From contig CP000067.1 of assembly GCA_000002445.1 (NCBI GenBank), positions 1,312,001 to 1,376,000 of the forward strand: a stretch of DNA of 64,000 nt. Reading direction: 5' to 3'. Every line of letters begins with the position of its first letter. The first letter of the stretch is position 1. Source of the DNA: Trypanosoma brucei (lineage: Eukaryota). The translations under genes were made by a program, and so were the position numbers. This document shows, one piece after another, positions 7,221-42,206 of the stretch. The notes under the pieces are model-generated. The model was not told the DNA's origin, did not search any database, and saw only the letters and a list, made by a program, of their open reading frames with translations.

Positions 7221-8699
7221 TTACCAGCCCACAGCCACTCCGTATATAGTGGCTCCAGTGCCAAATACAGACAAGGCAACACCAGCAAATAAAACTGCGT
7301 ATGTTGCAATGTAGTGTAGCCACCCAACGGTACTCAGGGACCAGTTACCACCATACATCATGAATAAGGAGGGAAGGATGAATCCAAGAAATCCACCACA
7401 CACAGAGCCAACGAAACCAAACACTGTATTAATGTTCGGAATAAATAGGCCACAAAGCAGCATAATTATGGAAATGGTTCCAATAATAGTGCAATGCTTA
7501 AAAAATGAAAGCTTCTCCGTATCCAAGCCGATAATGCCGCACAACCCATTTCGGCATGTCATTGCAAGAAGAGCGTAAGATGCGAATAGTTTTACGAGCA
7601 GGCCAACAAATCCCACCAAAATTGCCGGCTCCTTCACGGGGTCATACATCAATAACACGGAGCCTGCCACATCACGCCCAAAGTCAAGGTAACCGAAGAA
7701 TGCTGTCATGACACACAGGACAAGACATATACCCATGGCAATAGCAGAGTATGCAGTAAACCTGTGCGCACTGGGCTTTGCCATTCCGAAATATATTTCA
7801 AAAACAGAGATATGACACAAAAATGCAAACGTAAAGACACCTGGGCCTTCCACTGCCCGGTTGCTGGTGCCGAAGAGGTGAATGCCCTCATCACCTGGCG
7901 CTCCAGTAACATGTACGTTCTTAATGTTTTCCGGCAGCCCGTTCATACATGAATGCACCACAATAACTACCATAAGGTAAAATACGAAGAAAACAGAAAT
8001 CGTCGAGACATACCTCAAGGAATTCACCTCTCGTGGAATGGTGAGTGGTAGCATAAAACATAGCCACATGATGAAAGTCAGAAGGCGATTACCCCACTTC
8101 TCCTTAAGGAAGTTTGGCGCATCTGTACCCTTAAGTATTGTGCTAACAATATCGCCTGTCGCTATTATCTGCGCTACGGCTGCCCCAAATGCGTTAACCA
8201 CACGTAATACCCCCGTAAAGTACAAACAAGGCTGCCCAAGCAGCGCACGCGCCATACCCTCGTAGGATCTGAATCTATGCCGCTCCATTTGTGCACCAAG
8301 ACAATATAATGAGTATACGCATAGGAAATATATGATGATAGGGTACACAAATGTCATGACCAGTCCAGTGCTGTTGGCGGCCGCGGGCAACCCGAGGATA
8401 CCAGCTCCGATACATATGGAGGCAAGGCTGAAGGCGGTCGAAACTAGCCCGCCCGGAGGGATCATTGAAGTGAAACACTTCATGGATGACTGTTCCCCTT
8501 CTCCCTCATTAGCGGGAAGAGCATTCTTGCCCTTAAGCCCTTCATCTTCTCCACTTATCACTTCGCAGGAGCCGAAAGGAGATGTGACATCTGCCTTGTT
8601 TATCTGTTCCCTGTCTGTTGTGGGGACCACTGCGGACGCCATCCAACAACAATGATAACAGAGTGTTTGCCTTGCTTGCGCACTTACGTGCATACGCAA
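7221..8699 (-). CDS. Amino acid transporter, AAAP family, type A, copy 1. An alternative start, MASAVVPTT, sits at 8642.
   Basis: 492-aa ORF with about 11 hydrophobic helices. Carries the AAAP-type N-terminal motif PPGG.VSTAFSLASICIGAGILGLPAAANSTGLV. About 99% identical to 11210..12688. Confidence 0.85.
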   Translation of the reverse strand: MRMHVSAQARQTLCYHCCWMASAVVPTTDREQINKADVTSPFGSCEVISGEDEGLKGKNALPANEGEGEQSSMKCFTSMIPPGGLVSTAFSLASICIGAGILGLPAAANSTGLVMTFVYPIIIYFLCVYSLYCLGAQMERHRFRSYEGMARALLGQPCLYFTGVLRVVNAFGAAVAQIIATGDIVSTILKGTDAPNFLKEKWGNRLLTFIMWLCFMLPLTIPREVNSLRYVSTISVFFVFYLMVVIVVHSCMNGLPENIKNVHVTGAPGDEGIHLFGTSNRAVEGPGVFTFAFLCHISVFEIYFGMAKPSAHRFTAYSAIAMGICLVLCVMTAFFGYLDFGRDVAGSVLLMYDPVKEPAILVGFVGLLVKLFASYALLAMTCRNGLCGIIGLDTEKLSFFKHCTIIGTISIIMLLCGLFIPNINTVFGFVGSVCGGFLGFILPSLFMMYGGNWSLSTVGWLHYIATYAVLFAGVALSVFGTGATIYGVAVGW

Positions 8700-8735
8700 A
8701 AGAAAAAGGGAGCAAACAGCGTAATGGAGAGTAAT
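8690..8735 (-). promoter_or_regulatory. Putative poly-pyrimidine tract and AG trans-splice acceptor region upstream of type-A AAT genes. The same sequence recurs at about 12680 and 16670.
   Basis: The plus strand is purine-rich here (gcaaaagaaaaagggagcaaacagcg), so the minus strand is CT-rich. It sits immediately 5' of each A-type ORF and is conserved in all three units. Confidence 0.4.
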
Positions 8736-9320
8736 TGTTTAGGGGATGATCATCCATGCGGTTGTGAATAACCGAAGATGATGGATATGCAGTGGTTATA
8801 GTCAGTTCAGTGAGGCAAAAAAAAAAAGGCGTTGAAACCATCTTTTTACACGGTGAATATTGCCAAATGTACTCCTTATGTGTTAAGCTCGGAACACGTC
8901 TATGTGTAAATGTATATGGAAAAAACGAGGTGAAGGGGACATGTTTACTGATGTAGATACACAAACCTCACGAAACATAAGAGCTGCGCGAAGGGACGGA
9001 CGAACAAAATACGGTTACCGAAGCCGCCGCAGCGACAGCAGGGTACCTAAGATATTAAATCGGGATAATAAGTTATGATAAAAGCAATAACACATAAAGA
9101 ATACGTAAGCCGATACAAAGCAAATCGTTTCACAGTGAACAGGAGGGAATGGATTCGCTCACCCACTTCAGTTAAAACGCTACTCGCTCAGTAGTTGAGT
9201 AAACCAAATCAAAAAAGGAAGGACAAGGTAAACAAAACAGATATTTAACAGTGCCAACAACGTTGTCACGACCTTCTTTTTAAATCATTCACTCGGGCTG
9301 ACCCTTATCATCCCTTGCTT

Positions 9321-10709
9321 TTATATGTTAATAGCTCCCCAGATGGAAGCCCCCGTGCCAAACACAATTGCAATGACACCAGTGATGAGTACCGTATACG
9401 TCGCGATATAGTGAAAGGGCCCAACTTTCTGCCATGTAAATCCACCGGCATACAATAACAACAGAGCAGGGAAAATGAATCCAAGAAGTCCACCAGAGAT
9501 CGAACCAGCGAGGCCAAGTACTGTATTAATGTTTGGAATAAATAGGCCACAAAGCAGCATAATTACGGAAAGGGTTACGACAGCAACACAGTGCTTCCAG
9601 AACATCACCTTCTCCGCATCCCAACCAATAATGCTGTACAGCGCGTTACGGCATGCCATTCCGAGCAGCGCGTAAGATGCGAATAGTTTTACGAGCAGGC
9701 CGATGAATCCCACCATAATTGCCGGCTCCTTCACGGGGTCATACATCAATAACACGGAGCCTGTAACATCACGCCCAAAGTCAAGGTAACCGAAGAATGC
9801 TGTCAAAACGTACATGGTGAAGCAGACAGCCATTGCAATGGTGGATGCCATTACAAACTTACCCACCGACCTGTTTGTCATTCCTACATAGACCTCATAC
9901 GCCGTAATTTGTGAGACGTAGGCGAAAATGAACACCCCAAGTCCTTCGATGGCCTTGTTCCCACTGTTAAAAAGCACAATTGCAGCCACATCATTCCTGC
10001 CCACGCTGACGTTCTTGATGTTTTCCGGCAACCCGTTCATACATGAATGCACCACAATAACGATCACAAGGTAGACAATGAAGCTAACAGCAAAGGTCGA
10101 GACGTACCTCAAGGAATTCACCTCTCGTGGAATGGCGAGTGGTAGCATAAAACATAGCCACATGATGAAAGTCAGAAGGCGATTACCCCACTTCTCCTTA
10201 AGGAAGTCTGGCGCATCTGTACCCTTAAGTATTGCGCTGAGGATATCACCCACGGATATTATGTACGCCACACAACCGCTGAAGCCATGAAAGGCACGGG
10301 TTGCGGCCACAAGGTAGGATCCCTTGGCACCAAACAATACTTTTGCCACACCCTCAAAGTCGTGTGTTTTTGTTTTGTCTGCAGCGACACCGAGGGCATA
10401 TATGGAGAATATAGTCATAACAGTAATTATAATGAGGTATACAATAGCCATAACGAGTCCGCTACTGTTGGCAGCGGAGGGTAGACCGACGATACCAGCT
10501 CCAACGGTTGATGATGCGATGTTGAAAGCACTTGCGGCAATGCCTCCGGGTGGGATGGCGGTGGCCACAAATGTGCTCATCCGTGCAAGGAAGCCGGTTC
10601 CCTCCCGCTGCTCTTGTGACTTGGGGTCTACAGCCGCGTCGCAGCATCCGATTGGTTCGTTCCTGACTTCCATGGCGGTGGGAACCTCTCGGGAGCAGGA
10701 GTCAGTCAC
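9321..10709 (-). CDS. Amino acid transporter, AAAP family, type B, copy 1.
   Basis: 462-aa polytopic ORF. Paralogous to type A, with shared blocks (GTDAP.FLKEKWGNRLLTFIMWLCFMLPL.IPREVNSLRYVST, LLMYDPVKEPAI.VGF.GLLVKLFASYALL). Identical at the protein level to 13309..14697. Confidence 0.85.
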   Translation of the reverse strand: MTDSCSREVPTAMEVRNEPIGCCDAAVDPKSQEQREGTGFLARMSTFVATAIPPGGIAASAFNIASSTVGAGIVGLPSAANSSGLVMAIVYLIIITVMTIFSIYALGVAADKTKTHDFEGVAKVLFGAKGSYLVAATRAFHGFSGCVAYIISVGDILSAILKGTDAPDFLKEKWGNRLLTFIMWLCFMLPLAIPREVNSLRYVSTFAVSFIVYLVIVIVVHSCMNGLPENIKNVSVGRNDVAAIVLFNSGNKAIEGLGVFIFAYVSQITAYEVYVGMTNRSVGKFVMASTIAMAVCFTMYVLTAFFGYLDFGRDVTGSVLLMYDPVKEPAIMVGFIGLLVKLFASYALLGMACRNALYSIIGWDAEKVMFWKHCVAVVTLSVIMLLCGLFIPNINTVLGLAGSISGGLLGFIFPALLLLYAGGFTWQKVGPFHYIATYTVLITGVIAIVFGTGASIWGAINI

Positions 10710-10774
10710 AATCGAGTCTGCGCCTTCGTTGCTCGTATTCTCTTTGTACTGGTATACGTGTGTGTGTGTTTTGG

Positions 10775-10835
10775 TGTGCAGTCAAAAAAATGTAGAAGAG
10801 AGTATAGGAGAAGGGAAAAGCACATTTTGTGTTAT
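10775..10835 (-). promoter_or_regulatory. Putative poly-pyrimidine tract and splice-acceptor region upstream of type-B AAT genes. It recurs at about 14765 and 18650.
   Basis: The plus strand reads aaaaaaatgtagaagagagtataggagaagggaaaagc, giving a pyrimidine-rich minus strand. Conserved in all three units. Confidence 0.4.
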
Positions 10836-11209
10836 TTCCATATTGGTTCCGGAATGTGCATCGGCATGGGCATGGGAGCGACGTGCACAGAACGTTTAAC
10901 ACTAATCCAACAAGATTGAAAACACATGTTATACCGCCTCTCCCCCATTTTTACGGAAAAATATTTCGTCCATGTTATACGTAAGAATAATGTACCCGCT
11001 ACAGAAGGAATTGCTGCTGGTTAGCACCGTCCCTTCAAAGGGGAAATAGCTGCAGCGCCTTCCACGCTCAATTAAGCACATAACATATTTACCAGAGTTT
11101 TTAAGTTATTCCGTATATTATTTGCTTGTGAAGCGCTTTTTCTCTCTAAAGTTGTGGCTTGTTACAACATTTTGCTTCGGAAGTACCGTTTGCCAAGCGT
11201 GGGGCATTA

Positions 11210-12688
11210 TTACCAGCCCACAGCCACTCCGTATATAGTGGCTCCAGTGCCAAATACAGACAAGGCAACACCAGCAAATAAAACTGCGTATGTTGCAATG
11301 TAGTGTAGCCACCCAACGGTACTCAGGGACCAGTTACCACCATACATCATGAATAAGGAGGGAAGGATGAATGCAAGAAATCCACCACACACAGAGCCAA
11401 CGAAACCAAGTACTGTATTAATGTTCGGAATAAATAGGCCACAAAGCAGCATAATTATGGAAATGGTTCCAATAATAGTGCAATGCTTAAAAAATGAAAG
11501 CTTCTCCGTATCCAAGCCGATAATGCCGCACAACCCATTTCGGCATGTCATTGCAAGAAGAGCGTAAGATGCGAATAGTTTTACGAGCAGGCCAACAAAT
11601 CCCACCAAAATTGCCGGCTCCTTCACGGGGTCATACATCAATAACACGGAGCCTGCCACATCACGCCCAAAGTCAAGGTAACCGAAGAATGCTGTCATGA
11701 CACACAGGACAAGACATATACCCATGGCAATAGCAGAGTATGCAGTAAACCTGTGCGCACTGGGCTTTGCCATTCCGAAATATATTTCAAAAACAGAGAT
11801 ATGACACAAAAATGCAAACGTAAAGACACCTGGGCCTTCCACTGCCCGGTTGCTGGTGCCGAAGAGGTGAATGCCCTCATCACCTGGCGCTCCAGTAACA
11901 TGTACGTTCTTAATGTTTTCCGGCAGCCCGTTCATACATGAATGCACCACAATAACTACCATAAGGTAAAATACGAAGAAAACAGAAATCGTCGAGACAT
12001 ACCTCAAGGAATTCACCTCTCGTGGAATGGTGAGTGGTAGCATAAAACATAGCCACATGATGAAAGTCAGAAGGCGATTACCCCACTTCTCCTTAAGGAA
12101 GTTTGGCGCATCTGTACCCTTAAGTATTGTGCTAACAATATCGCCTGTCGCTATTATCTGCGCTACGGCTGCCCCAAATGCCTCAACAACACGTAATACC
12201 CCTATAAAGTACAAACAAGGCTGCCCAAGCAGCGCACGCGCCATACCCTCGTAGGATCTGAATCCATGCCGCTCCATTTGTGCACCAAGACAATATAATG
12301 AGTATACGCATAGGAAATATATGATGATAGGGTACACAAATGCCATGACCAGTCCAGTGCTGTTGGCGGCCGCGGGCAACCCGAGGATACCAGCTCCGAT
12401 ACATATGGAGGCAAGGCTGAAGGCGGTCGAAACTAGCCCGCCCGGAGGGATCATTGAAGTGAAACACTTCATGGATGACTGTTCCCCTTCTCCCTCATTA
12501 GCGGGAAGAGCATTCTTGCCCTTAAGCCCTTCATCATCTCCACTTATCACTTCGCAGGAGCCGAAAGGAGATGTGACATCTGCCTTGTTTATCTGTTCCC
12601 TGTCTGTTGTGGGGACCACTGCGGACGCCATCCAACAATAATGATAACAGAGTGTTTGCCTTGCTTGCGCACTTACGTGCATACGCAA
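11210..12688 (-). CDS. Amino acid transporter, AAAP family, type A, copy 2.
   Basis: 492 aa, with only a few substitutions relative to copy 1. Offset from copy 1 is 3989 bp. Confidence 0.85.
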   Translation of the reverse strand: MRMHVSAQARQTLCYHYCWMASAVVPTTDREQINKADVTSPFGSCEVISGDDEGLKGKNALPANEGEGEQSSMKCFTSMIPPGGLVSTAFSLASICIGAGILGLPAAANSTGLVMAFVYPIIIYFLCVYSLYCLGAQMERHGFRSYEGMARALLGQPCLYFIGVLRVVEAFGAAVAQIIATGDIVSTILKGTDAPNFLKEKWGNRLLTFIMWLCFMLPLTIPREVNSLRYVSTISVFFVFYLMVVIVVHSCMNGLPENIKNVHVTGAPGDEGIHLFGTSNRAVEGPGVFTFAFLCHISVFEIYFGMAKPSAHRFTAYSAIAMGICLVLCVMTAFFGYLDFGRDVAGSVLLMYDPVKEPAILVGFVGLLVKLFASYALLAMTCRNGLCGIIGLDTEKLSFFKHCTIIGTISIIMLLCGLFIPNINTVLGFVGSVCGGFLAFILPSLFMMYGGNWSLSTVGWLHYIATYAVLFAGVALSVFGTGATIYGVAVGW

Positions 12689-13308
12689 AAGAAAAAGGGA
12701 GCAAACAGCGTAATGGAGAGTAATTGTTTAGGGGATGATCATCCATGCGGTTGTGAATAACCGAAGATGATGGATATGCAGTGGTTATAGTCAGTTCAGT
12801 GAGGCAAAAAAAAAAGGCGTTGAAACCATCTTTTTACACGGTGAATATTGCCAAATGTACTCCTTATGTGTTAAGCTCGGAACACGTCTATGTGTAAATG
12901 TATATGGAAAAAACGAGGTGAAGGGGACATGTTTACTGATGTAGATACACAAACCTCACGAAACATAAGAGCTGCGCAAAGGGACGGACGAACAAAATAC
13001 GGTTACCGAAGCCGCCGCAGCGACAGCAGGGTACCTAAGATATTAAATCGGGATAATAAGTTATGATAAAAGCAATAACACATAAAGAATACGTAAGCCG
13101 ATACAAAGCAAATCGTTTCACAGTGAACAGGAGGGAATGGATTCGCTCACCCACTTCAGTTAAAACGCTACTCGCTCAGTAGTTGAGTAAACCAAATCAA
13201 AAAAGGAAGGACAAGGTAAACAAAACAGATATTTAACAGTGCCAACAACGTTGTCACGACCTTCTTTTTAAATCATTCACTCGGGCTGACCCTTATCATC
13301 CCTTGCTT

Positions 13309-14697
13309 TTATATGTTAATAGCTCCCCAGATGGAAGCCCCCGTGCCAAACACAATTGCAATGACACCAGTGATGAGTACCGTATACGTCGCGATATAGT
13401 GAAAGGGCCCAACTTTCTGCCATGTAAATCCACCGGCATACAATAACAACAGAGCAGGGAAAATGAATCCAAGAAGTCCACCAGAGATCGAACCAGCGAG
13501 GCCAAGTACTGTATTAATGTTTGGAATAAATAGGCCACAAAGCAGCATAATTACGGAAAGGGTTACGACAGCAACACAGTGCTTCCAGAACATCACCTTC
13601 TCCGCATCCCAACCAATAATGCTGTACAGCGCGTTACGGCATGCCATTCCGAGCAGCGCGTAAGATGCGAATAGTTTTACGAGCAGGCCGATGAATCCCA
13701 CCATAATTGCCGGCTCCTTCACGGGGTCATACATCAATAACACGGAGCCTGTAACATCACGCCCAAAGTCAAGGTAACCGAAGAATGCTGTCAAAACGTA
13801 CATGGTGAAGCAGACAGCCATTGCAATGGTGGATGCCATTACAAACTTACCCACCGACCTGTTTGTCATTCCTACATAGACCTCATACGCCGTAATTTGT
13901 GAGACGTAGGCGAAAATGAACACCCCAAGTCCTTCGATGGCCTTGTTCCCACTGTTAAAAAGCACAATTGCAGCCACATCATTCCTGCCCACGCTGACGT
14001 TCTTGATGTTTTCCGGCAACCCGTTCATACATGAATGCACCACAATAACGATCACAAGGTAGACAATGAAGCTAACAGCAAAGGTCGAGACGTACCTCAA
14101 GGAATTCACCTCTCGTGGAATGGCGAGTGGTAGCATAAAACATAGCCACATGATGAAAGTCAGAAGGCGATTACCCCACTTCTCCTTAAGGAAGTCTGGC
14201 GCATCTGTACCCTTAAGTATTGCGCTGAGGATATCACCCACGGATATTATGTACGCCACACAACCGCTGAAGCCATGAAAGGCACGGGTTGCGGCCACAA
14301 GGTAGGATCCCTTGGCACCAAACAATACTTTTGCCACACCCTCAAAGTCGTGTGTTTTTGTTTTGTCTGCAGCGACACCGAGGGCATATATGGAGAATAT
14401 AGTCATAACAGTAATTATAATGAGGTATACAATAGCCATAACGAGTCCGCTACTGTTGGCAGCGGAGGGTAGACCGACGATACCAGCTCCAACGGTTGAT
14501 GATGCGATGTTGAAAGCACTTGCGGCAATGCCTCCGGGTGGGATGGCGGTGGCCACAAATGTGCTCATCCGTGCAAGGAAGCCGGTTCCCTCCCGCTGCT
14601 CTTGTGACTTGGGGTCTACAGCCGCGTCGCAGCATCCGATTGGTTCGTTCCTGACTTCCATGGCGGTGGGAACCTCTCGGGAGCAGGAGTCAGTCAC
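13309..14697 (-). CDS. Amino acid transporter, AAAP family, type B, copy 2.
   Basis: 462 aa, identical translation to 9321..10709. Offset is 3988 bp. Confidence 0.85.
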   Translation of the reverse strand: MTDSCSREVPTAMEVRNEPIGCCDAAVDPKSQEQREGTGFLARMSTFVATAIPPGGIAASAFNIASSTVGAGIVGLPSAANSSGLVMAIVYLIIITVMTIFSIYALGVAADKTKTHDFEGVAKVLFGAKGSYLVAATRAFHGFSGCVAYIISVGDILSAILKGTDAPDFLKEKWGNRLLTFIMWLCFMLPLAIPREVNSLRYVSTFAVSFIVYLVIVIVVHSCMNGLPENIKNVSVGRNDVAAIVLFNSGNKAIEGLGVFIFAYVSQITAYEVYVGMTNRSVGKFVMASTIAMAVCFTMYVLTAFFGYLDFGRDVTGSVLLMYDPVKEPAIMVGFIGLLVKLFASYALLGMACRNALYSIIGWDAEKVMFWKHCVAVVTLSVIMLLCGLFIPNINTVLGLAGSISGGLLGFIFPALLLLYAGGFTWQKVGPFHYIATYTVLITGVIAIVFGTGASIWGAINI

Positions 14698-15197
14698 AAT
14701 CGAGTCTGCGCCTTCGTTGCTCGTATTCTCTTTGTACTGGTATACGTGTGTGTGTGTTTTGGTGTGCAGTCAAAAAAATGTAGAAGAGAGTATAGGAGAA
14801 GGGAAAAGCACATTTTGTGTTATTTCCATATTGGTTCCGGAATGTGCATCGGCATGGGCATGGGAGCGACGTGCACAGAACGTTTAACACTAATCCAACA
14901 AGATTGAAAACACATGTTATACCGCCTCTCCCCCATTTTTACGGAAAAATATTTCGTCCATGTTATACGTAAGAATAATGTACCCGCTACAGAAGGAATT
15001 GCTGCTGGTTAGCACCGTCCCTTCAAAGGGGGAATTATTACCGTATAATTCACGTTCGAGGAAGGAAATAACATATTTACCAGAGTTTTTAAGTTATTCC
15101 GTATATTATTTGCTTGTGAAGCGCTTTTTTACTCTAAAGTTGTGGCTTGTTACAACATTTTGCTTCGGAAGTACCGTTTGCCAAGCGTGGGGCATTA

Positions 15198-16676
15198 TTA
15201 CCAACCCACAGCCACTCCGTATATAGTGGCTCCAGTGCCAAATACAGACAAGGCAACACCAGCAAATAAAACTGCGTATGTTGCAATGTAGTGTAGCCAC
15301 CCAACGGTACTCAGGGACCAGTTACCACCATACATCATGAATAAGGAGGGAAGGATGAATCCAAGAAATCCACCACACACAGAGCCAACGAAACCAAACA
15401 CTGTATTAATGTTCGGAATAAATAGGCCACAAAGCAGCATAATTACGGAAAGGATTCCAATAATAGTGCAATGCTTAAAAAATGAAAGCTTCTCCGCATC
15501 CCACTCAACGATGCCGCACAACCCATTTCGGCAGGACATTGCAAGAAGAGCGTAAGATGCGAATAGTTTCGTAAGGACGCCAACAAATCCCACCAAAATT
15601 GCCGGCTCCTTCACGGGGTCATACATCAATAACACGGAGCCCGTAACTTTCCCCCCAAAGTCAAGGTAACCGAAGAATGCTGTCATGACACACAGGACAA
15701 GACATATACCCATGGCAATAGCAGAGTATGCAGTAAACCTGTGCGCACTTGGCTTTGCCATTCCGAAATATATTTCGAAGGCGTAACATTGACAAACAAA
15801 TGCAAACGTAAAGACACCTGGGCCTTCCACTGCCCGGTTGCTAGTGCCGAAGAGGTGAATGCCCTCATCACCTGGCGCTCCAGTAACATGTACGTTCTTA
15901 ATGTTTTCCGGCAGCCCGTTCATACATGAATGCACCACAATAACGCCCATAAGGTAAAATATAAAGACAACAGCAAAGGTCGAGACATACCTCAAGGAAT
16001 TCACCTCTCGTGGAATGGTGAGTGGTAGCATAAAACATAGCCACATGATGAAAGTCAGAAGGCGATTACCCCACTTCTCCTTAAGGAAGTTTGGCGCATC
16101 TGTACCCTTAAGTATTGTGCTAACAATATCGCCAACGGAGATTATGTACGCCACACAGGCCCCAAATGCGTTAACCACACGTAATACTCCAGTGAGGTGC
16201 GCACCGTAGGGCCCAAGCAGCGCACGCGCCATACCCTCGTAGGATCTGAATCCATGCCGCTCCATTTGTGCACCAAGACAATATAATGAGTATACGCATA
16301 GGAAATATATGATGATAGGGTACACAAATGTCATGACCAGTCCAGTGCTGTTGGCGGCCGCGGGCAACCCGAGGATACCAGCTCCGATACATATGGAGGC
16401 AAGGCTGAAGGCGGTCGAAACTAGCCCGCCCGGAGGGATCATTGAAGTGAAACACTTCATGGATGACTGTTCCCCTTCTCCCTCATTAGCGGGAAGAGCA
16501 TTCTTGCCCTTAAGCCCTTCATCTTCTCCACCTATCACTTCGCAGGAGCCGAAAGGAGATGTGACATCTGCCTTGTTTATCTGTTCCCTGTCTGTTGTGG
16601 GGACCACTGCGGACGCCATCCAACAACAATGATAACAGAGTGTTTGCCTTGCTTGCGCACTTACGTGCATACGCAA
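15198..16676 (-). CDS. Amino acid transporter, AAAP family, type A, copy 3. A mosaic of A-type and B-type sequence blocks.
   Basis: 492 aa with A-type N- and C-termini. Internal patches match type B, not type A: GACVAYIISVGDI, VSTFAVVFIFYLMG, FGGKVTGS, VEWDAEKLSFF. Confidence 0.8.
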   Translation of the reverse strand: MRMHVSAQARQTLCYHCCWMASAVVPTTDREQINKADVTSPFGSCEVIGGEDEGLKGKNALPANEGEGEQSSMKCFTSMIPPGGLVSTAFSLASICIGAGILGLPAAANSTGLVMTFVYPIIIYFLCVYSLYCLGAQMERHGFRSYEGMARALLGPYGAHLTGVLRVVNAFGACVAYIISVGDIVSTILKGTDAPNFLKEKWGNRLLTFIMWLCFMLPLTIPREVNSLRYVSTFAVVFIFYLMGVIVVHSCMNGLPENIKNVHVTGAPGDEGIHLFGTSNRAVEGPGVFTFAFVCQCYAFEIYFGMAKPSAHRFTAYSAIAMGICLVLCVMTAFFGYLDFGGKVTGSVLLMYDPVKEPAILVGFVGVLTKLFASYALLAMSCRNGLCGIVEWDAEKLSFFKHCTIIGILSVIMLLCGLFIPNINTVFGFVGSVCGGFLGFILPSLFMMYGGNWSLSTVGWLHYIATYAVLFAGVALSVFGTGATIYGVAVGW

Positions 16677-17190
16677 AAGAAAAAGGGAGCAAACAGCGTA
16701 ATGGAGAGTAATTGTTTAGGGGATGATCATCCATGCGGTTGTGAATAACCGAAGATGATGGATATGCAGTGGTGACAGAAAATGAAGAGAAGGCGGGCGG
16801 ACATCCTTCTTAGGTGGTAGGATTGTCTGACTGCTGAATTACGCTAGGATTGTTGCGCACGTTGTGAAGAACACAACAACTGTACTTTATTGTTAATAGG
16901 AAAATTTAATGCTGCCATCTTAGGATAAATACAACACGAACAGCATCTAGTAATGTGCTGGTGGGGCGATAACATCACCGTTAGTGGATGAAGGAGTGGT
17001 TTCTTCTACGTGCTTATATAAAATAGGAAAACCATTACACAAAATTAAATAAGAAGTTTACGATTAGAACACACCCATATTATCCACCTACATCAATAAT
17101 TGACGACGCAGGAAATCCCAACAAACAGGACCGTGAAAGAGTCAATGACAACTAAAGGACATCTGTGACTAAGGCATTTTTAATCAATTG

Positions 17191-18582
17191 TCAATTTCCC
17201 ACCACTACGCCATGTATAGTGGCCCCCGTGCCAAACACAATGGCCAGCACACCACTAAGCAACAACGTATACGTCGCGATATAGTGAAAGGGCCCAACTT
17301 TCTGCCATGTAAATCCACCGGCATACAATAACAACAGAGCAGGGAAAATGAATCCAAGAAGTCCACCAGAGATCGAACCAGCGAGGCCAAGTACTGTATT
17401 AATGTTTGGAATAAATAGGCCACAAAGCAGCATAATTACGGAAAGGGTTACGACAGCAACACAGTGCTTCCAGAAGATCACCTTCTCCGCATCCCAACCA
17501 ATAATGCTGTACAGCGCGTTACGGCATGCCATTCCGAGCAGCGCGTAAGATGCGAATAGTTTTACGAGCAGGCCGATGAATCCCACCATAATTGCCGGCT
17601 CCTTCACGGGGTCATACATCAATAACACGGAGCCTGTAACATCACGCCCAAAGTCAAGGTAACCGAAGAATGCAGTCATGGCATACAGCACGGAGCACGT
17701 TGCCATCGCGATGCTCGTGGCGACGATAAACTTGCGTACAGACCTGTCTTCCATGTCCATGTAAACCTCATACGCCGTAATTTGTGAGACGTAGGCGAAA
17801 ATGAACACCCCAAGTCCTTCGATGGCCTTGTTCCCACTGTTAAAAAGCACAATTGCAGCCACATCATTCCTGCCCACGCTGACGTTCTTGATGTTTTCCG
17901 GCAACCCGTTCATACATGAATGCACCACAATAACGATCACAAGGTAGACAATGAAGCTAACAGCAAAGGTCGAGACGTACCTCAAGGAATTCACCTCTCG
18001 TGGAATGGCGAGTGGTAGCATAAAACATAGCCACATGATGAAAGTCAGAAGGCGATTACCCCACTTCTCCTTAAGGAAGTCTGGCGCATCTGTACCCTTA
18101 AGTATTGCGCTGAGGATATCACCCACGGATATTATGTACGCCACACAGGCGCTGAAGCCATGAAAGGCACGGGTTGCGGCCACAAGGTAGGATCCCTTGG
18201 CACCAAACAATACTTTTGCCACACCCTCAAAGTCGTGTGTTTTTGTTTTGTCTGCAGCGACACCGAGGGCATATATGGAGAATATAGTCATAACAGTAAT
18301 TATAATGAGGTATACAATAGCCATAACGAGTCCGCTACTGTTGGCAGCGGAGGGTAGACCGACGATACCAGCTCCAACGGTTGATGATGCGATGTTGAAA
18401 GCACTTGCGGCAATGCCTCCGGGTGGGATGGCGGTGGCCACAAATGTGCTCATCCGTGCAAGGAAGCCGGTTCCCTCCCGCTGCTCTTGTGACTTGGGGT
18501 CTACAGCCGCGTCGCAGCATCCGATTGGTTCGTTCCTGACTTCCATGGCGGTGGGAACCTCTCGGGAGCAGGAGTCAGTCAC
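17191..18582 (-). CDS. Amino acid transporter, AAAP family, type B, copy 3. Distal copy, divergent in its 3' third.
   Basis: 463 aa. The N-terminal two thirds are identical to the other B copies. The C-terminal segment (YMDMEDRSVRKFIVATSIAMATCSVLYAM ... TLLLSGVLAIVFGTGATIHGVVVGN) is divergent. Confidence 0.8.
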   Translation of the reverse strand: MTDSCSREVPTAMEVRNEPIGCCDAAVDPKSQEQREGTGFLARMSTFVATAIPPGGIAASAFNIASSTVGAGIVGLPSAANSSGLVMAIVYLIIITVMTIFSIYALGVAADKTKTHDFEGVAKVLFGAKGSYLVAATRAFHGFSACVAYIISVGDILSAILKGTDAPDFLKEKWGNRLLTFIMWLCFMLPLAIPREVNSLRYVSTFAVSFIVYLVIVIVVHSCMNGLPENIKNVSVGRNDVAAIVLFNSGNKAIEGLGVFIFAYVSQITAYEVYMDMEDRSVRKFIVATSIAMATCSVLYAMTAFFGYLDFGRDVTGSVLLMYDPVKEPAIMVGFIGLLVKLFASYALLGMACRNALYSIIGWDAEKVIFWKHCVAVVTLSVIMLLCGLFIPNINTVLGLAGSISGGLLGFIFPALLLLYAGGFTWQKVGPFHYIATYTLLLSGVLAIVFGTGATIHGVVVGN

Positions 18583-18978
18583 AATCGAGTCTGCGCCTTC
18601 GTTGCTCGTATTCTCTTTGTACTGGTATACGTGTGTGTGTGTTTTGGTGTGCAGTCAAAAAAATGTAGAAGAGAGTATAGGAGAAGGGAAAAGCACATTT
18701 TGTGTTATTTCCATATAGTACCCCTTTTCTCTTCGCCAAAAACATTTTGCATTATCAATGTTTATATGCTATATGTTTTATTATTATTTTGTTTTATTTT
18801 TTGGTAAAGCCATTTTGCTGGTGTTTTCCATAATTTTTTAGACGGAATTTACTCTCAGTTCAGCGAACTTCCCTTCATATATTTCTTTTCGCACTATGAG
18901 GACACATATTTTGGTTTTCATGGTTTGCGTTGCTTCAATGCGCTGATAGAGTGTTAAAGAGGCTTGACAGTCGTGGAA

Positions 18979-19002
18979 GTGTGTGTGTGTGTGTGTGTGT
19001 GT
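18979..19002. repeat. (GT)12 microsatellite.
   Basis: gtgtgtgtgtgtgtgtgtgtgtgt. Confidence 0.9.
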
Positions 19003-20659
19003 ATTCTTCTGTTGTCAATGCTGTTCCACCCTTTGTATGGTGGTGGACTTCTCGTTGCATCGCTGTTGGTACTAATTTTGCATCTCCCTTTTCATATATA
19101 TATATATATATTTCCTTTTCACTACGGCATTTAACTGGGGAACACTCCGTTAGAACCAGGGAGAAGTGAAACAACCCATAACTTTGAGGAAGAGAAGAGA
19201 AGAGGGGAGAGGAGGGAAACTTATAAACCAGAGTGATTAAGCGAATTGTTTTCGTAATTTTGCCAATCCATCAGCAGTGTGAGAGGAAGAAATTGTATCC
19301 TTTCGCACAACATACAATCTTCGTAGCACAAAGGGAAGACAGAGGACCATATAATAAAGCGTACGAAATGTTAATATCTCCTGCCGCTGTTGGAAACGGC
19401 TATGTATATATATATATATAATTTATATTTTTTACTGTTTCTTTGTGTGCGATCTTCTTCATAAATAAATAGACACTTTTATCACTCGTTCGTTCAACTA
19501 CGTATCGGGGATCCGGTTAAGTAATGGTGAAAAGCAACTCTTTTACACCTTAGATAAAACGCTACCACAAAACATGAAATGAAAGAAAACAAGACGGAAC
19601 GGACCGAACGAAGTCTCTCACTCGTTTTTTTTCCATTCATTCTGCCACAGCAAGTAATAACAAGTAAGGAGACATAAAACAATTAATACGGGGGGGGGTG
19701 GATATAAGTGTAAAAAAAAAAAAAGAATATGTGTATGTAACGCGTGCGAGAACCGTCCACAGCATAAATACATCACCGCTGCGACGTAAACGGGAGGGGA
19801 AACAAGATGGACACACACACACACACATACACAAACGAAAAGAGAAAAAGGGATACAGTTAAACGATATCGAGCCACTTCCTCTTTCACATTTATTCTTC
19901 CACAGCCCCATTCACTTTCACTCAGCCAGTTACTGATTTCACTGATGCTTTTCAGGTTGTTAAAAAGCAGCCGGGGTAACAAAAACATAAAACAAGGAAC
20001 AGATGGAATCAGAGGCCGATAGTGACGAGCGCACAGATGTCACCGATGTAAACAAAAATACAAGAGAAAAAAGAATGAAAACAACAAAAACCAAACGAAA
20101 CAAGGACCAAACGGACGGATATACTCCTTGAGACACCGATAAATGCGTGGGTGTTGATTGTGGGTGAGGTAAGATCGTACGATGAAATTGACGTAACAGT
20201 AATAATAATAATAATAATATCGACCGCTTTCAAACAGACGTAACAACAATAGTAATGCGACGAGAAAGGGAAGTAGTTATGACGATACACATATGTGCGG
20301 TGGTGGGAAATATAGAGGCGGCAGTGGGGAACTGGCGAAAAAACTTCGTCATATTGCTTGTGTTTGCCCCAACTTCTGTCACTTTCGCGCAACTAACGAC
20401 TAAAAGAAGTCACATGCCCACCTCATTCCTCTCTTTAGTCAGTCCCCTGTCGCCTCATTTTCCCTTCCTCCCTTTTCTTCGTTTTTCTTTTTTTTTTTTT
20501 AAAAAGTTTCCTCCGTTTAGGATCCTTAATAACATTTTGCTAGATCTTCGAGATGCCTAGTGTGCAGCCACCTTCAACCCTCAACCCCTCTAGAATGTCC
20601 TCTGTTCTTCCTTTTTTTCTTAAAAAAAAAACGAGCACCAGGCGCTGTTGCGATTATAT

Positions 20660-23242
20660 CTAGGGCAACTGTTGCTGCTCTCGGTTCTGCATTTCATTCA
20701 CGACCACTTGTTGTTGTGAGCCCTCCATTTCTTCTTCTACGTCGAGTGCTTGTCCCTCCGCTCGTCGTTGCTGTCGGCGCCGCAACCAGTCATGAATAAC
20801 TGTTGACAACGACGTCCCGAATGTGGCATAGCCGAGGAACAACACTGCGCCGGTACAGGGCGACGCCTCCCACGACCACACGATGCTGCTCGTGCGGTAG
20901 ATGAACAGCTTCACCAAAAAACCAAGTGCTAACGCTTGCAACACCCCACCCACGAAGATCAACACTATTATGCACGTGTTCCTTCGGGTCCAAAACGGGG
21001 GAAGAGTTTGGAAGGCCATCAAATAAGCCAGCGTCTCTGGATCCGTGTGAAAATTGGCATACACTGCAGAAAACGCAAATGCCGCCAGCATTGTCAACAT
21101 AAATTGCAGGAATACGGTGAGGATAACTCCATCGAACTCAAACATTGTACCATAGGAAACGGCATGCCACGGCGCGCGGCAGGTCATCTCACCAAACGTT
21201 ACGCGCTGACCCGCGGTAACAGCTACAAAGGCGAATACGCTGCTGAGTACCAGCAGAAGACCGGAGCCGACTCCTTTTAAATTCTTCACTACTAGAGCGC
21301 GGCGGCTTATGGGGACGCGAAAGGGCTTTTTGCATATTTCACAGCGGTCTACGTTGCGGATGTTGCGTTTGGTGCTTTCGATGCGCCACTTGTCAAGGCA
21401 AGAGGCATGAATCCACCGAACAGAGCCTATACACTCACACGCAGATATTACTGGCTCCTCGGATTCGTCGTCGCGGCAAATGCGGCAGATGCGCTCCCCT
21501 TCATCCTCCTCATCCCCAACCACTTTCGTCTGCTCGCTACAACTCACTGCGGGTACTGAAGGTGCGGCATTCCTCTGCTCAACCTCAGTTTCTGAATAAA
21601 TGCTATAGTTGTTGTTGTTACTGCAATTACTACCATTGTTCACTGCATTTCGTGATAGAGAGGCGGCGGCGGCTGTGGAGCCTGCATATTCGTCTCTCGC
21701 ATCACCAAACGGCTTGGGCGCCTTCTTCGGACTCGCTATGAGCGGTCGCTTTAAATTACTGCGCGTGTTGTCTTCGTTGTCGTCTAGATCCATGTCAACC
21801 ATGTCCTCCAATATGACGACATCATCCGCTCGTAGTCCCCCCTTCGGTGCATGTGGTGGTATAAATTCCATCCGAACGGCTGTTGTCCCACTCGAGGCCT
21901 CCCTAAACTCTTGCTCGCTGGGATTTCCACGCCCTCCTTCCTCTTCCAGTGGACTTCGACTCCCGAGGTGTTGTGACTGAGGGTACAAATTTGTGTCAAC
22001 ATCACCGTTATTACCATCGTTCATGTCCATACCCGTCGGTGTGAAGGTTGTTTGCTCCATGATGCGCCGATGTTGCTCTTCAAGCTGGCGCTGACGCTGT
22101 TCCTCCTGACGTCGTGCGCGTGTTCCCTGCACTAACTGGTAGAGATATGCGAAGAAGCGTACCAGTGTATTCCGTAATGCCACTGCCGGATAAACCAACC
22201 ACAATACCACATCAATATCCGCAAGGTAATCCTTCAACACATGCGCGTACATAAATGTGATTGGTGCTGTGATTAACAGAATGAAAAGCGGAACACCCAG
22301 GGCGAAGACGTTTTGCATGAGGCGTTCCTTCTCCTTAGGGGTTTGTGTGATATACACCTTCACCTGGCAATCTTTGCCCGCGCGGTAATAACTTCCACTC
22401 ACCCCCAGTTGGGCGTTGAGCAAGACCACGTACGGTTGGGGTTCTGGTTCCGGTTCCACCCGCAGCATAACCATTGGTAGTAACTCACAGAAATTACTGG
22501 TGTCGAGCATCGTGACGATAGCATTCCAGAAAGCCTTCCACCCCCCCTTTTGTTCATGCTCTTCTTCTGTACCGCTTCCATCCCCTGGGTTGCCACCGCC
22601 GTTTCCCTCCTTTCCATTGGTTGCAGCGTGCGCCACGCGCTCGGTGAGTGCCGTCAAGTTCACATCTTTCTTAGCACGTATCTCCACACTAACGAAGTAG
22701 CCTATACAATTGTCTGAAGGAATGTTGGCGTCGTAACGGTGACTCAGCAACTGCGTCACAACTTTGACCTCAGACCGCGTACTGCTCTCGAATTCCAGAT
22801 AGCTCATAGTGTTGGGAGACACATGAACCACATACCCGCCCTGTGGCTGGGACGACCCGTTCATACTCATTTGGCTTCTCACTTCATTGCCTTGAAAGTT
22901 TCCTCTGCCTTCGTTGTTCGTTTTCGCAACGTCTGAAACGGAAGCTGTCTTCACCGTGAGGAGGTCAAGGATCGGGCGGTAATTCCCCGCCTTCTCGTGG
23001 CTGGTTCCGGTTTCACCGGTACCGCCACCTCCTTCATTACGAGCCGCTGCCTTGTGTGTGCTGACGGCGAGAGGTGTCACGTGTGATAACACACCAAAGA
23101 GCCGCTTCCACCCCTTCGGCTTCTGAAACTTCCCTTTTACCGTGTGCTGGTGTTTTCGTTCCTGACCTCCGGCATTGGATAAAAGGGAGACGATTAGAAC
23201 GGAGCATATGCCGAGTAAACACATGGAGCGGTTCGGAATCAT
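20660..23242 (-). CDS. RING-CH (C4HC3, MARCH-like) zinc-finger polytopic membrane protein, putative E3 ligase. ORF track gives 20660..23290; likely start is MIPNRSMCLLG at 23242.
   Basis: Motif CRICRDDESEEPVISACECIGSVRWIHASCLDKW ... CEICKKPF (C-x2-C ... C-x-C ... H-x2-C ... C-x2-C), followed by several hydrophobic helices. N-terminal signal-like segment LLGICSVLIVSLLSNAG. Confidence 0.7.
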   Translation of the reverse strand: MIPNRSMCLLGICSVLIVSLLSNAGGQERKHQHTVKGKFQKPKGWKRLFGVLSHVTPLAVSTHKAAARNEGGGGTGETGTSHEKAGNYRPILDLLTVKTASVSDVAKTNNEGRGNFQGNEVRSQMSMNGSSQPQGGYVVHVSPNTMSYLEFESSTRSEVKVVTQLLSHRYDANIPSDNCIGYFVSVEIRAKKDVNLTALTERVAHAATNGKEGNGGGNPGDGSGTEEEHEQKGGWKAFWNAIVTMLDTSNFCELLPMVMLRVEPEPEPQPYVVLLNAQLGVSGSYYRAGKDCQVKVYITQTPKEKERLMQNVFALGVPLFILLITAPITFMYAHVLKDYLADIDVVLWLVYPAVALRNTLVRFFAYLYQLVQGTRARRQEEQRQRQLEEQHRRIMEQTTFTPTGMDMNDGNNGDVDTNLYPQSQHLGSRSPLEEEGGRGNPSEQEFREASSGTTAVRMEFIPPHAPKGGLRADDVVILEDMVDMDLDDNEDNTRSNLKRPLIASPKKAPKPFGDARDEYAGSTAAAASLSRNAVNNGSNCSNNNNYSIYSETEVEQRNAAPSVPAVSCSEQTKVVGDEEDEGERICRICRDDESEEPVISACECIGSVRWIHASCLDKWRIESTKRNIRNVDRCEICKKPFRVPISRRALVVKNLKGVGSGLLLVLSSVFAFVAVTAGQRVTFGEMTCRAPWHAVSYGTMFEFDGVILTVFLQFMLTMLAAFAFSAVYANFHTDPETLAYLMAFQTLPPFWTRRNTCIIVLIFVGGVLQALALGFLVKLFIYRTSSIVWSWEASPCTGAVLFLGYATFGTSLSTVIHDWLRRRQQRRAEGQALDVEEEMEGSQQQVVVNEMQNREQQQLP

Positions 23243-23367
23243 CTTTTTTTTCCTTTTTGATGTAACCTCCAACACTTTACGTGTCCTCAATATTGAAAAC
23301 AGTAATAGTAGTTGAACACGTCCTATGACACGCTCTTTTCACCAGTCTTTTTTCACGTTCTCTGTTT

Positions 23368-42153: not shown

Positions 42154-42171
42154 AAATAAATAAATAAATAA

Positions 42172-42204
<33 letters not shown>
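42154..42204. repeat. (AAAT)6 followed by (TA)14 microsatellite.
   Basis: aaataaataaataaataaataaatatatatatatatatatatatatatata. Confidence 0.9.

Positions 42205-42206
<2 letters not shown>

What the first reader, a model, noticed from the sequence alone, without database searches (positions are those of the whole stretch)
15198..16676. Third type-A transporter copy is an A/B mosaic, suggesting gene conversion between paralogs
Copies 1 and 2 of type A are nearly identical. Copy 3 keeps A-type ends but carries internal patches that match type B exactly or nearly:
- ...GACVAYIISVGDI... where A has GAAVAQIIATGDI and B has SGCVAYIISVGDI
- VSTFAVVFIFYLMG where A has VSTISVFFVFYLMV and B has VSTFAVSFIVYLVI
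- FGGKVTGS where A has FGRDVAGS and B has FGRDVTGS
- VEWDAEKLSFF where A has IGLDTEKLSFF and B has IGWDAEKVMFW
This patchwork is what segmental gene conversion between adjacent paralogs would produce. If so, it creates a chimeric transporter that may have altered substrate specificity.
Basis: seen in the sequence. Interest (0 to 1): 0.6.

Follow-up and report, generated by a model that had tools for sequence, protein, structure and literature searches.

The report
Known patchwork amino-acid transporter gene array
The third copy is a real, already named trypanosome amino-acid transporter gene (AATP8), and its "B-like" patches are mostly old family-conserved residues that copies 1 and 2 have lost, in a gene array whose gene conversion was published in 2007.

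Summary
The window is Trypanosoma brucei brucei TREU927 chromosome 4. The six genes are the published AAT4Tb array (Tb927.4.4820-4870), with A1=AATP10, A2=AAT7 and A3=AATP8.

**Observation:** confirmed. A3 differs from A1=A2 at 73 nt (34 aa), packed into about 8 short islands.

**Interpretation:** only partly supported.
- Of the 73 sites, 34 match local B. At 27 sites A1/A2 match B and A3 does not.
- Within the islands, A3 is as far from B (73/210 mismatches) as from A1 (70/210).
- Only CDS 511-530 and about 10 nt at 693-702 are B-identical at nucleotide level. The first is the 25-bp conversion (511-536) that Jackson reported in 2007.
- At 23 of 34 differing residues A3 carries the family consensus, against 9 for A1.
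- All A copies share long B-identical tracts.

**Other strains:** AAT8-type sits at the same array position, behind its own spacer, in T. b. gambiense and T. equiperdum. It also equals an independent clone, so it is not an assembly artefact.

**Best model:** two old A-B units, partly homogenised by repeated conversion, leaving divergent islands.

**Verdict:** already known, low interest.

The parts
15198..16676 (-). A3 = AATP8 / 'amino acid transporter 8' (XP_844635.1; Tb927.4.4860 by tag order). The mechanical ORF starts at a TTG. The real ATG options are 16670 (490 aa, MHVS...) or 16619 (473 aa, MASAVV...).
   Evidence: Pfam Aa_trans E=1e-50. AlphaFold pLDDT 89, LeuT fold.
16188..16210 (-). 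Island 1 (CDS 461-483, aa 137-142, start of TM3): PYGAHL in A3 vs QPCLYF in A1/A2. Not B-like (B has AKGSYL). A3 is closer to the chr8 and T. congolense A-type genes (PWSAYL / PRAAYA).
16134..16160 (-). Island 2 (CDS 511-537, aa 155-162, middle of TM3): GACVAYIISVG in A3 vs GAAVAQIIATG in A1/A2. CDS 511-530 is a 20-nt run identical to B3. This is the one convincing B-identical tract private to A3, and it corresponds to Jackson's 25-bp event at 511-536.
   Evidence: PMC1810246 Table 3.
15945..15978 (-). Island 3 (CDS 693-726, TM5): the first about 10 nt (ACC TTT GCT GTT) are B-identical and extend the shared A=B tract. The rest (VFIFYLMG) is neither A1-like nor B-like. The LMG motif matches the T. 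congolense A-type gene.
15777..15797 (-). Island 4 (CDS 874-894, aa 275-280, TM6 break): VCQCYA in A3 vs LCHISV in A1/A2. There are 11/21 mismatches to B, so it is not B-derived. Q277 is the family consensus (16/18 relatives).
15642..15653 (-). Island 5 (CDS 1018-1029, end of TM7): GGG AAA GTT ACG in A3. Here A1/A2 and the AAT10-type genes of other strains equal or nearly equal B (CGT GAT GTT ACA), and A3 resembles the A-type outgroups.
15570..15578 (-). Island 6a (CDS 1093-1101, TM8, next to the near-invariant K351): GTC CTT ACG in A3. A1/A2 are identical to B here (CTG CTC GTA).
15497..15536 (-). Island 6b (CDS 1135-1174, end of TM8 and following loop): S..IVEWDA in A3 vs T..IIGLDT in A1/A2. 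W373 and A375 are family-conserved, E372 is unique to A3, and the flanks are not B-like.
15446..15454 (-). Island 6c (CDS 1217-1225, TM9): ILSV in A3 vs TISI in A1/A2. It lies at the 5' edge of a shared A=B tract.
15988..16117 (-). Largest A=B conversion tract (CDS 554-683). It is 97-98% identical to B in all three A copies and in T. b. gambiense, but only about 70% identical to the chr8 paralogues.
15550..15685 (-). Second large A=B tract (CDS 986-1121), shared by all A copies and interrupted in A3 only by islands 5 and 6a.
16677..16773 (-). 97 nt upstream of the A ORF that are 100% identical between the alpha (A3) and beta (A1/A2) units. This marks a sharp 5' boundary of A-to-A homogenisation.
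16774..17190 (-). Alpha-unit-specific B3-to-A3 spacer. It cannot be aligned with the B1-to-A1 and B2-to-A2 spacers, but is 98-99% conserved upstream of the AAT8-type gene in T. b. gambiense and T. equiperdum.
17191..18582 (-). B3 (XP_844636.1), first gene of the array in the direction of transcription. It is itself patchy relative to B1=B2.
7221..15197 (-). Two near-identical beta units of about 3,989 bp: A1 = AATP10 / Tb927.4.4820 (7221-8699), B1 (9321-10709), A2 = AAT7 (11210-12688) and B2 (13309-14697).

Best explanation
The six genes are the known dimorphic AAT4Tb array of T. brucei chromosome 4. They encode AAAP-family, LeuT-fold amino-acid transporters.

**Array structure.** The array consists of two old kinds of A-B unit.
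- The alpha unit (B3-A3) has its own B 3' end and spacer and carries the AATP8-type A gene.
- The beta unit (B-A10 type) has recently been duplicated in TREU927, giving B2-A2 and B1-A1.

**How the mosaic arose.**
- Repeated non-reciprocal exchange between A genes has homogenised them to 100% identity over most of the CDS and 97 nt upstream.
- Exchange between A and B genes has created B-identical tracts common to all A copies.
- What remains different between A3 and A1/A2 is about 8 short islands that escaped homogenisation.

**What the islands contain.**
- In most islands A3 keeps the ancestral or family-consensus state and the AAT10/AAT7 type carries derived states.
- Each subtype also has its own private B-identical micro-tracts: 511-530 and 693-702 in A3, 1018-1029 and 1093-1101 in A1/A2, and 1258-1277 in A2 alone.

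So A3 is not an A copy that was recently riddled with B patches. It is the less-derived of two long-standing A subtypes in an array where every copy is a mosaic.

**Shown:** identities, tract coordinates, polarity counts, conservation across subspecies, and a natural AAT8xAAT10 recombinant.

**Inferred:** the order and direction of events, and that the islands persist because of sequence-divergence barriers and/or selection on substrate-pocket helices.
For: - **Identity of the locus.** Exact protein matches to XP_844631-844636 and CAC86549. The array is described in PMC1810246.
- **Two unit types.** U1 and U2 are near-identical. U3 has an unalignable B-to-A spacer and a different B 3' end, with a sharp return to 100% identity 97 nt before the A ORF.
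- **Both spacers are old.** Each is 98-99% conserved at the corresponding array position in T. b. gambiense and T. equiperdum.
- **Equal divergence of both genes.** B3 vs B1 (dS 0.097, dN 0.038) matches A3 vs A1 (dS 0.092, dN 0.041). This points to a property of the unit, not of A3 alone.
- **Shared A=B tracts.** All A copies have them: 97-98% identical to B, about 70% to the chr8 paralogues.
- **Islands are not B-derived overall.** A3-B3 has 73/210 mismatches and A3-A1 has 70/210. A1 is farther than A3 from every outgroup (99 vs 83 to the chr8 A gene, 107 vs 94 to the T. congolense A gene).
- **Polarity.** Nucleotides favour A3 over A1 by 34:19 (chr8 A) and 27:16 (T. congolense A). Amino acids favour A3 by 23:9.
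- **Reciprocal private B-like tracts.** Both directions are significant in the 3SEQ-like test.
- **Ongoing A-to-A exchange.** The second A gene of T. equiperdum is AAT8-type up to CDS ~709 and AAT10-type from ~725.
- **No donor found.** No other family protein carries either subtype's unique island peptides. No 14-mer donor exists in the chr8 array, the T. congolense array or the rest of the window.
Against: - Islands as short as 9-12 nt with 50-65% divergence, sitting inside tracts otherwise identical among all six genes (1018-1029, 1093-1101), are awkward as passive remnants. They need discontinuous conversion tracts or selection.
- Synonymous sites against the outgroups are saturated (pS ~0.8), so nucleotide polarity is noisy. 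The relative-rate excess is modest: 34 vs 19 gives chi-square ~4.2 (my arithmetic from the counts).
- The 3SEQ-like test also gives low p-values for impossible donors such as T. congolense genes. It measures clustering rather than proving a donor.
- Only part of the T. brucei genome could be searched at nucleotide level. A donor in another AAT locus is excluded only at peptide level.
- The T. equiperdum recombinant could be an assembly chimera.
Confidence: 0.6

Rival explanations
1. A3 began as an A1/A2-like copy and acquired several internal patches by segmental gene conversion from the adjacent B genes, creating a new A/B chimera.
For: - A 20-nt run identical to B3 at CDS 511-530, with 11 of 12 informative sites.
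- This tract was published as GENECONV/SISCAN-significant (PMC1810246).
- Y158 (TAC) and F215/A216 are B-type rather than A-type-outgroup states.
- A-to-B conversion clearly operates in this array.
Against: - Only 34 of 73 differing sites match B, and at 27 sites A1/A2 are the B-like copies.
- Within the islands, A3-B3 mismatch (73/210) equals A3-A1 mismatch (70/210).
- Islands 1, 4, 5, 6a and most of 6b are not B-like at nucleotide level.
- A distant chr8 paralogue matches A3 as often as the adjacent B does.
- A3 holds the family consensus at 23 of 34 positions.
- The AAT8 type is old and positionally conserved, with its own spacer.
Confidence: 0.12
2. Unsampled-donor model. A3's (or A1/A2's) islands were copied in by short-tract ectopic conversion from another AAT locus or a divergent allele that was not available here at nucleotide level.
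For: - Very dense micro-islands (6 differences in 9 nt, 7 in 12 nt) inside otherwise identical sequence look templated.
- T. brucei has about 47 AAT genes (PMC13524880).
Against: - No family protein recovered (154 sequences, including the T. brucei paralogues) carries the island peptides. Best matches were 5/7 to 7/10 residues.
- No 14-mer match in the chr8 array, the T. congolense array or the rest of the window.
- Jackson 2007 found no ectopic conversion between AAT loci.
Confidence: 0.1
3. Selection-driven neofunctionalisation. The AAT10/AAT7 type underwent adaptive replacement of conserved pocket residues, and selection actively prevents homogenisation of these islands with AAT8.
For: - A1/A2 replace residues that are near-universal in relatives: C155A, S161A, V162T, Q277H, T326A, W373L and L390I.
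- Islands lie in the middle of TM3, at the TM6 break and in TM8 next to the near-invariant K351.
- Both haplotypes persist across subspecies.
- Jackson 2007 reported an elevated rate in one clade of three copies of this array.
Against: - dN/dS between A3 and A1 is 0.45, not above 1.
- T. equiperdum tolerates a hybrid gene.
- At the level of islands (3-4 of 8 in pocket helices) the enrichment is not significant.
- No functional data exist for AAT4 members.
Confidence: 0.15
4. Assembly or sequencing chimera of A and B reads.
For: Tandem near-identical repeats are prone to mis-assembly.
Against: - The A3 protein is identical to the independently cloned AATP8 (CAC86549.1).
- The same haplotype occurs at the same position in two other assemblies.
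Confidence: 0.01

Closest known systems
AAT4Tb tandem array of T. brucei (Jackson 2007, BMC Evol Biol 7:26; AATP3, 7-10 of Hasne 2002)
   Same: This is the same locus. It has six copies of two alternating sequence types on chromosome 4 (Tb927.4.4820-4870). A 25-bp conversion between the types at alignment positions 511-536 was reported as significant by GENECONV and SISCAN. That matches my A3 tract at 511-530 / 513-536.
   Different: - The paper reports only that one event, with recipient 'AAT4.2' and donors 4.1, 4.3 or 4.5. I infer that AAT4.2 is A3, because B1 = B2 exactly and only A3 has such a private tract. The paper's numbering is not spelled out in the text I read.
- It does not describe the other islands, the polarity (AAT8 ancestral-like, AAT10/7 derived), the tracts shared by all A copies, or the reciprocal B-like tracts in A1/A2.
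- It could not test concerted evolution for this array.
AAT7Tb array on chromosome 8 (Tb927.8.7600-7700; AATP1, the proline/alanine transporters AAT7-B)
   Same: It is the paralogous dimorphic array produced by the chr4/chr8 block duplication. It also has A-type (546 aa) and B-type (466-467 aa) genes and its own A=B identical tracts, for example CDS 1033-1106. Several conversion events are published for it.
   Different: - About 70% nucleotide identity to the chr4 genes, with synonymous sites saturated.
- The A-type genes sit only at the downstream end of the array.
- Substrates are known for some B-type members, but for none of the AAT4 members (PMC13524880).
Concerted evolution with partial gene conversion in trypanosome tandem arrays (Jackson 2007, BMC Evol Biol 7:54)
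   Same: Tandem duplicates are transcribed polycistronically. Paralogues within the genome are homogenised, and sequence variation persists as discrete types within an array.
   Different: Nothing essential. This array is listed there as 'amino acid transporter 10' with Ks 0.58 and Ka 0.21, in line with my A-vs-B pS of 0.57.
AAAP / LeuT-fold transporters with solved structures (LAX3, AUX1, SLC38A9)
   Same: Same fold. Foldseek TM-scores are 0.72-0.81 to LAX3 (9h61), 0.70-0.79 to AUX1 and 0.61-0.73 to SLC38A9. The model has 11 TM helices with broken TM1 and TM6.
   Different: Only 15-18% sequence identity, and phmmer finds no PDB hit. The substrate and coupling ion of AAT4 proteins are unknown.

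Membership tests
AAAP (amino acid/auxin permease, Pfam Aa_trans PF01490) | Significant match to the PF01490 profile over the whole membrane domain | tested here: met
   A3 scores E=1.1e-50 over residues 84-485 against profile positions 4-409 of 410. B3 scores E=2.7e-48.
AAAP (amino acid/auxin permease, Pfam Aa_trans PF01490) | LeuT fold with 11 TM helices, broken TM1 and TM6, and a cytosolic N-terminal tail | tested here: met
   The AlphaFold model has pLDDT 89 and pTM 0.86, with helix breaks at 78-79 and 275-276 and a disordered N-tail at 1-33. The best PDB matches are LAX3, AUX1 and SLC38A9.
AAAP (amino acid/auxin permease, Pfam Aa_trans PF01490) | Amino-acid transport activity | not testable with these tools
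   No functional data for AAT4 members were found. They are referred to as non-characterised (PMC13524880).
AAT4Tb array (Tb927.4.4820-4870) | Exact identity of the gene products to the annotated TREU927 chromosome 4 proteins | tested here: met
   A1=XP_844631, A2=XP_844633, A3=XP_844635 and CAC86549, B1=B2=XP_844632/4, B3=XP_844636. Tb927.4.4820 = AATP10.
   Met for CDS 511-530 (20 nt; 11 of 12 informative sites; p<2e-4) and for about 10 nt at 693-702 only.
   Only 34 of 73 sites match B, while at 27 sites A1/A2 match B and A3 does not. Island mismatch A3-B3 is 73/210 against A3-A1 70/210.
   A3 holds the family consensus at 23 of 34 positions and the A-type outgroup state at 19 against 8. 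Nucleotide counts favour A3 by 34:19 and 27:16. The exceptions that favour conversion are Y158, F215, A216 and V275.
Concerted evolution of a tandem array | Paralogues in one array are more similar to each other than to their counterparts in the duplicated locus, with sharp identity boundaries | tested here: met
   A=B tracts are 97-98% identical on chr4 but about 70% to the chr8 counterparts. The A3/A1 identity boundary lies exactly 97 nt upstream of the ORF.
Concerted evolution of a tandem array | Evidence of exchange still occurring among strains | tested here: inconclusive
   The second A gene of T. equiperdum is an AAT8/AAT10 hybrid with a breakpoint at CDS 710-724. A single assembly cannot exclude mis-assembly.

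The most novel reading that the evidence does not exclude
The islands are not neutral leftovers. They are specificity determinants held apart by selection inside an otherwise homogenising array.

- The T. brucei-specific AAT10/AAT7 subtype has replaced a near-universal TM3 motif (GACVAY/FIISVGD to GAAVAQIIATGD).
- It has also replaced the Gln at the TM6 break (Q277H) and other conserved residues (T326A, W373L, L390I).
- AATP8 keeps the ancestral pocket.

On this reading the array encodes two A-type transporters with different substrates. That would make it a natural island-swap experiment for mapping substrate selectivity in trypanosome AAAP transporters.
Probability: 0.3. Interest if true: 0.4.

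Novelty: already known. Interest (0 to 1): 0.15.

Why it matters
It matters little as a discovery. The array, its two alternating sequence types and an inter-type gene conversion at this very position were published in 2007, and AATP8 has been a named gene since 2002.

The useful outcome is a correction of direction. The "odd" third copy is the conservative one, and the two near-identical copies (AATP10/AAT7) carry the unusual substitutions at otherwise conserved transporter positions.

If those islands control substrate choice, AAT8, AAT10 and the natural T. equiperdum hybrid would be convenient material for mapping selectivity. These T. brucei-specific transporters belong to a clade whose characterised members already span ornithine, proline/alanine and branched-chain amino acids, and they are relevant to parasite nutrition and drug uptake.

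Tried and rejected
- **Look-ups that failed.** Exact-protein look-up of TREU927 genes (A3, P0002, P0132) returned nothing, because the TREU927 assembly is not in that index. I used the T. b. gambiense, T. equiperdum and T. congolense loci instead.
- **Sequence search of the PDB.** phmmer with A3 gave no hit. A fold search was needed.
- **Tandem Repeats Finder.** It found nothing, because the 3,989-bp period exceeds its limit.
- **Literature search.** A search that included the bare term 'AAT4' returned mostly irrelevant papers.
- **Donor search.** No T. brucei or other family protein carries the unique island peptides of either subtype. No 14-mer from any island occurs in the chr8 array, the T. 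congolense array or the rest of the window.
- **Assembly chimera.** Considered and rejected, because of the independent clone and two other assemblies.
- **Positive selection.** Gene-wide dN/dS is 0.45, so there is no simple signal.
- **Compensated indel in island 1.** I considered whether A1's island 1 (QPCLYF) is a compensated indel version of the ancestral PW/YxAYL. An in-frame codon insertion plus deletion lowers the mismatch to the chr8 gene, but I checked this by eye only and do not rely on it.
- **First 3SEQ-like script.** It timed out and was rerun in vectorised form.
Full report
**What the region is.** The window carries six ORFs on the minus strand that alternate between two types. 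Type A is at 7221-8699, 11210-12688 and 15198-16676. Type B is at 9321-10709, 13309-14697 and 17191-18582. All six are Aa_trans (PF01490) transporters.

Exact-sequence look-ups identify the source as Trypanosoma brucei brucei TREU927 chromosome 4:
- A1 = XP_844631.1 'amino acid transporter 10'
- A2 = XP_844633.1 'amino acid transporter 7'
- A3 = XP_844635.1 'amino acid transporter 8', and identical to the independently deposited AATP8 clone CAC86549.1
- B1 = B2 = XP_844632/844634
- B3 = XP_844636

Published papers give Tb927.4.4820 = AATP10 and Tb927.4.4830 = the next transporter. They also group Tb927.4.4820/4840/4860 as sharing N-terminal phosphosites T20/S21/S25/S30. These fit the A-type N-terminus counted from MASAVV. 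[quoted passage not shown] Transcription runs from high to low window coordinates, so the order is B3, A3, B2, A2, B1, A1.

**Checking the observation.**
- A1 and A2 differ at 12 nt. A3 differs from A1 at 75 nt and from A2 at 84 nt. B1 = B2, and B3 differs from them at 68 nt.
- The 73 sites where A3 differs from A1=A2 fall in about 8 islands: CDS 461-483, 513-537, 693-726, 874-894, 1018-1029, 1093-1101, 1135-1174 and 1217-1225, plus three singletons.
- The clustering is far beyond chance (p<5e-5).

**Is adjacent B the donor?** Mostly not.
- Of the 73 sites, 34 match B. At 27 sites A1/A2 match B and A3 does not, and 12 match neither.
- Over the 210 nt of islands, A3 is as far from B3 (73 mismatches) as from A1 (70).
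- The A-type paralogue on chromosome 8 cannot plausibly be the recent donor, because it shares no 14-mer with any island. It still matches A3 at 34 of the 73 sites, the same number as adjacent B. T. congolense B-type genes match at 38.
- Codon by codon, the islands sort as follows:
  - Only CDS 511-530 (GCC TGT GTG GCG TAC ATA AT) is a run of identity with B3.
  - About 10 nt at 693-702 extend the shared A=B tract.
  - Island 1 (PYGAHL), island 4 (VCQCYA), and the unique GGG AAA, GTC CTT ACG and GAG codons are not B-like.
A1/A2 (and AAT10-type genes elsewhere) carry B's CGT GAT, while A3's GGG AAA resembles the chr8 (GGAVTGS) and T. congolense (GSKVTGS) A-type genes.
- A 3SEQ-like permutation test gives a maximum rise of 11 at 513-536 for A3 as 'child' of A1 x B3. 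It gives a rise of 7 at 1018-1101 for A1 as 'child' of A3 x B3, both at p<2e-4.
- The same test gives low p-values with T. congolense genes as 'parent'. It therefore reflects clustering. Local B3 nevertheless gives by far the highest rise at 513-536, so that tract is best explained by exchange with B.
- That tract is the event Jackson reported (25 bp, 511-536, GENECONV 6e-6, SISCAN 6e-5).
- I infer that his 'AAT4.2' is A3, the second gene in transcription order, because B1 = B2 exactly and only A3 has such a private tract.

**Polarity.**
- At the 34 amino-acid differences, A3 carries the residue most common among 18 relatives outside the array at 23 positions and A1 at 9. Against the six A-type outgroups alone the counts are 19 and 8.
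- A1/A2 have replaced residues that are near-universal in the family: C155 (16/18), S161 (17/18), V162 (15/18), Q277 (16/18), T326 (16/18), W373 (11/18) and L390 (17/18).
- A1 is farther than A3 from every outgroup in the islands.
- The exceptions where A3 has B-type rather than A-type-outgroup states are Y158, F215, A216 and V275. These lie in or next to the two B-identical tracts.

**The array as a whole.**
- All three A copies, not just A3, contain tracts 97-98% identical to B: CDS 554-683, 727-756, 986-1121 and 1226-1256. The same tracts are only about 70% identical to the chr8 paralogues. So A-to-B conversion within this array is pervasive and shared.
- A2 has its own private B-identical 20-nt tract at 1258-1277.
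- Aligning the three repeat units shows that U1 and U2 are near-identical. U3 has a different B 3' end and an unalignable B-to-A spacer (514 vs 621 nt), with identity resuming abruptly 97 nt upstream of the A ORF.
- Both spacer types are 98-99% conserved in T. b. gambiense DAL972 and T. equiperdum at the corresponding positions. The gene behind the alpha spacer is AAT8-type in all three, with 9-10 nt differences from A3.
- B3 vs B1 shows the same divergence as A3 vs A1 (dS about 0.09-0.10, dN about 0.04).
- Hence there are two old units, alpha (B3-A3) and beta, and beta is duplicated in TREU927. The high identity of the A genes results from A-to-A homogenisation, and the islands are what is left.
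- Exchange appears to continue. The second A gene of T. equiperdum is AAT8-type through CDS ~709 and AAT10-type from ~725.
- No donor for either subtype's unique islands exists among 154 family proteins.

**Structure and possible function.**
- An AlphaFold model of A3 (pLDDT 89, pTM 0.86) has the 11-helix LeuT/AAAP architecture with broken TM1 and TM6. It matches LAX3, AUX1 and SLC38A9.
- The islands map as follows:
  - start of TM3 (137-142)
  - middle of TM3 (155-162)
  - TM5 (215-225)
  - the TM6 break (275-280)
  - end of TM7 (323-326)
  - TM8 next to the near-invariant K351 (348-350)
  - the loop after TM8 (371-375)
  - TM9 (389-392)
- In LeuT-fold carriers TM1, 3, 6 and 8 form the substrate site (established knowledge). 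A difference in specificity between AAT8 and AAT10/7 is therefore plausible.
- It remains unproven. dN/dS is 0.45, enrichment is not significant at island level, and AAT4 members are functionally uncharacterised.

**Verdict.** The feature is an ordinary, documented case of concerted evolution with partial gene conversion in a trypanosome tandem array. Novelty: already known. Interest: low (0.15).

Noticed in passing
window 17191-18582 (B3) and 16774-17260: B3 is itself a patchwork relative to B1=B2.
- A dense island at about 17662-17762 reads YMDMEDRSVRKFIVATSIAMATCSVLYAM in B3 and YVGMTNRSVGKFVMASTIAMAVCFTMYVL in B1/B2.
- B3 also has a different C-terminus (…GATIHGVVVGN vs …GASIWGAINI) and a different 3' spacer.
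- The B3 states resemble the family consensus. The B1/B2 'GGA ATG' matches the A-type genes.
   Followed up: partly
window 11394-11413 (A2 CDS 1258-1277): A2 alone has a 20-nt tract identical to B. The two changes at CDS 1272 and 1273 both go to the B state (NTVLGF vs NTVFGF). This looks like a micro-conversion that occurred after the U1/U2 duplication.
   Followed up: partly
L002 10001-11473 (T. equiperdum) and L002 ~7862-9375: The second A gene of T. equiperdum is a clean hybrid. It is AAT8-type up to CDS ~709 and AAT10-type from ~725. The B gene between the two A genes is split across reading frames, which could be a pseudogene or a long-read indel error.
   Followed up: partly
window 16532 (A3 CDS 139): TREU927 A3 has Gly instead of Ser at residue 30 of the 473-aa protein. 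S30 is a reported phosphosite of the AAT4 A-type N-terminal tail (PMC13524880, Table 1). The AAT8 genes of T. b. gambiense and T. equiperdum differ from A3 at this nucleotide, as A1 and A2 (which carry Ser) do.
   Followed up: partly
L001 (T. b. gambiense chr4) vs window 7221-19185: The T. b. gambiense assembly has two A-B units (B, AAT8, B, AAT10) where TREU927 has three. This is either a real copy-number difference or a collapse of the near-identical beta units in assembly.
   Followed up: no
window 16188-16210 (island 1): A1/A2's QPCLYF may derive from the ancestral P-W/Y-x-A-Y-L by an in-frame codon insertion (CAG) plus a codon deletion, rather than by many substitutions. A shifted alignment to the chr8 gene roughly halves the mismatches. 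This was checked by eye only.
   Followed up: no
window 20660-23290, 25639-27396, 42001-44000: The neighbouring minus-strand genes encode a RING-variant domain protein and a CorA-like Mg2+ transporter. These are syntenic with T. b. gambiense and T. equiperdum. There is a marked GC dip (0.33) at 42-44 kb.
   Followed up: no
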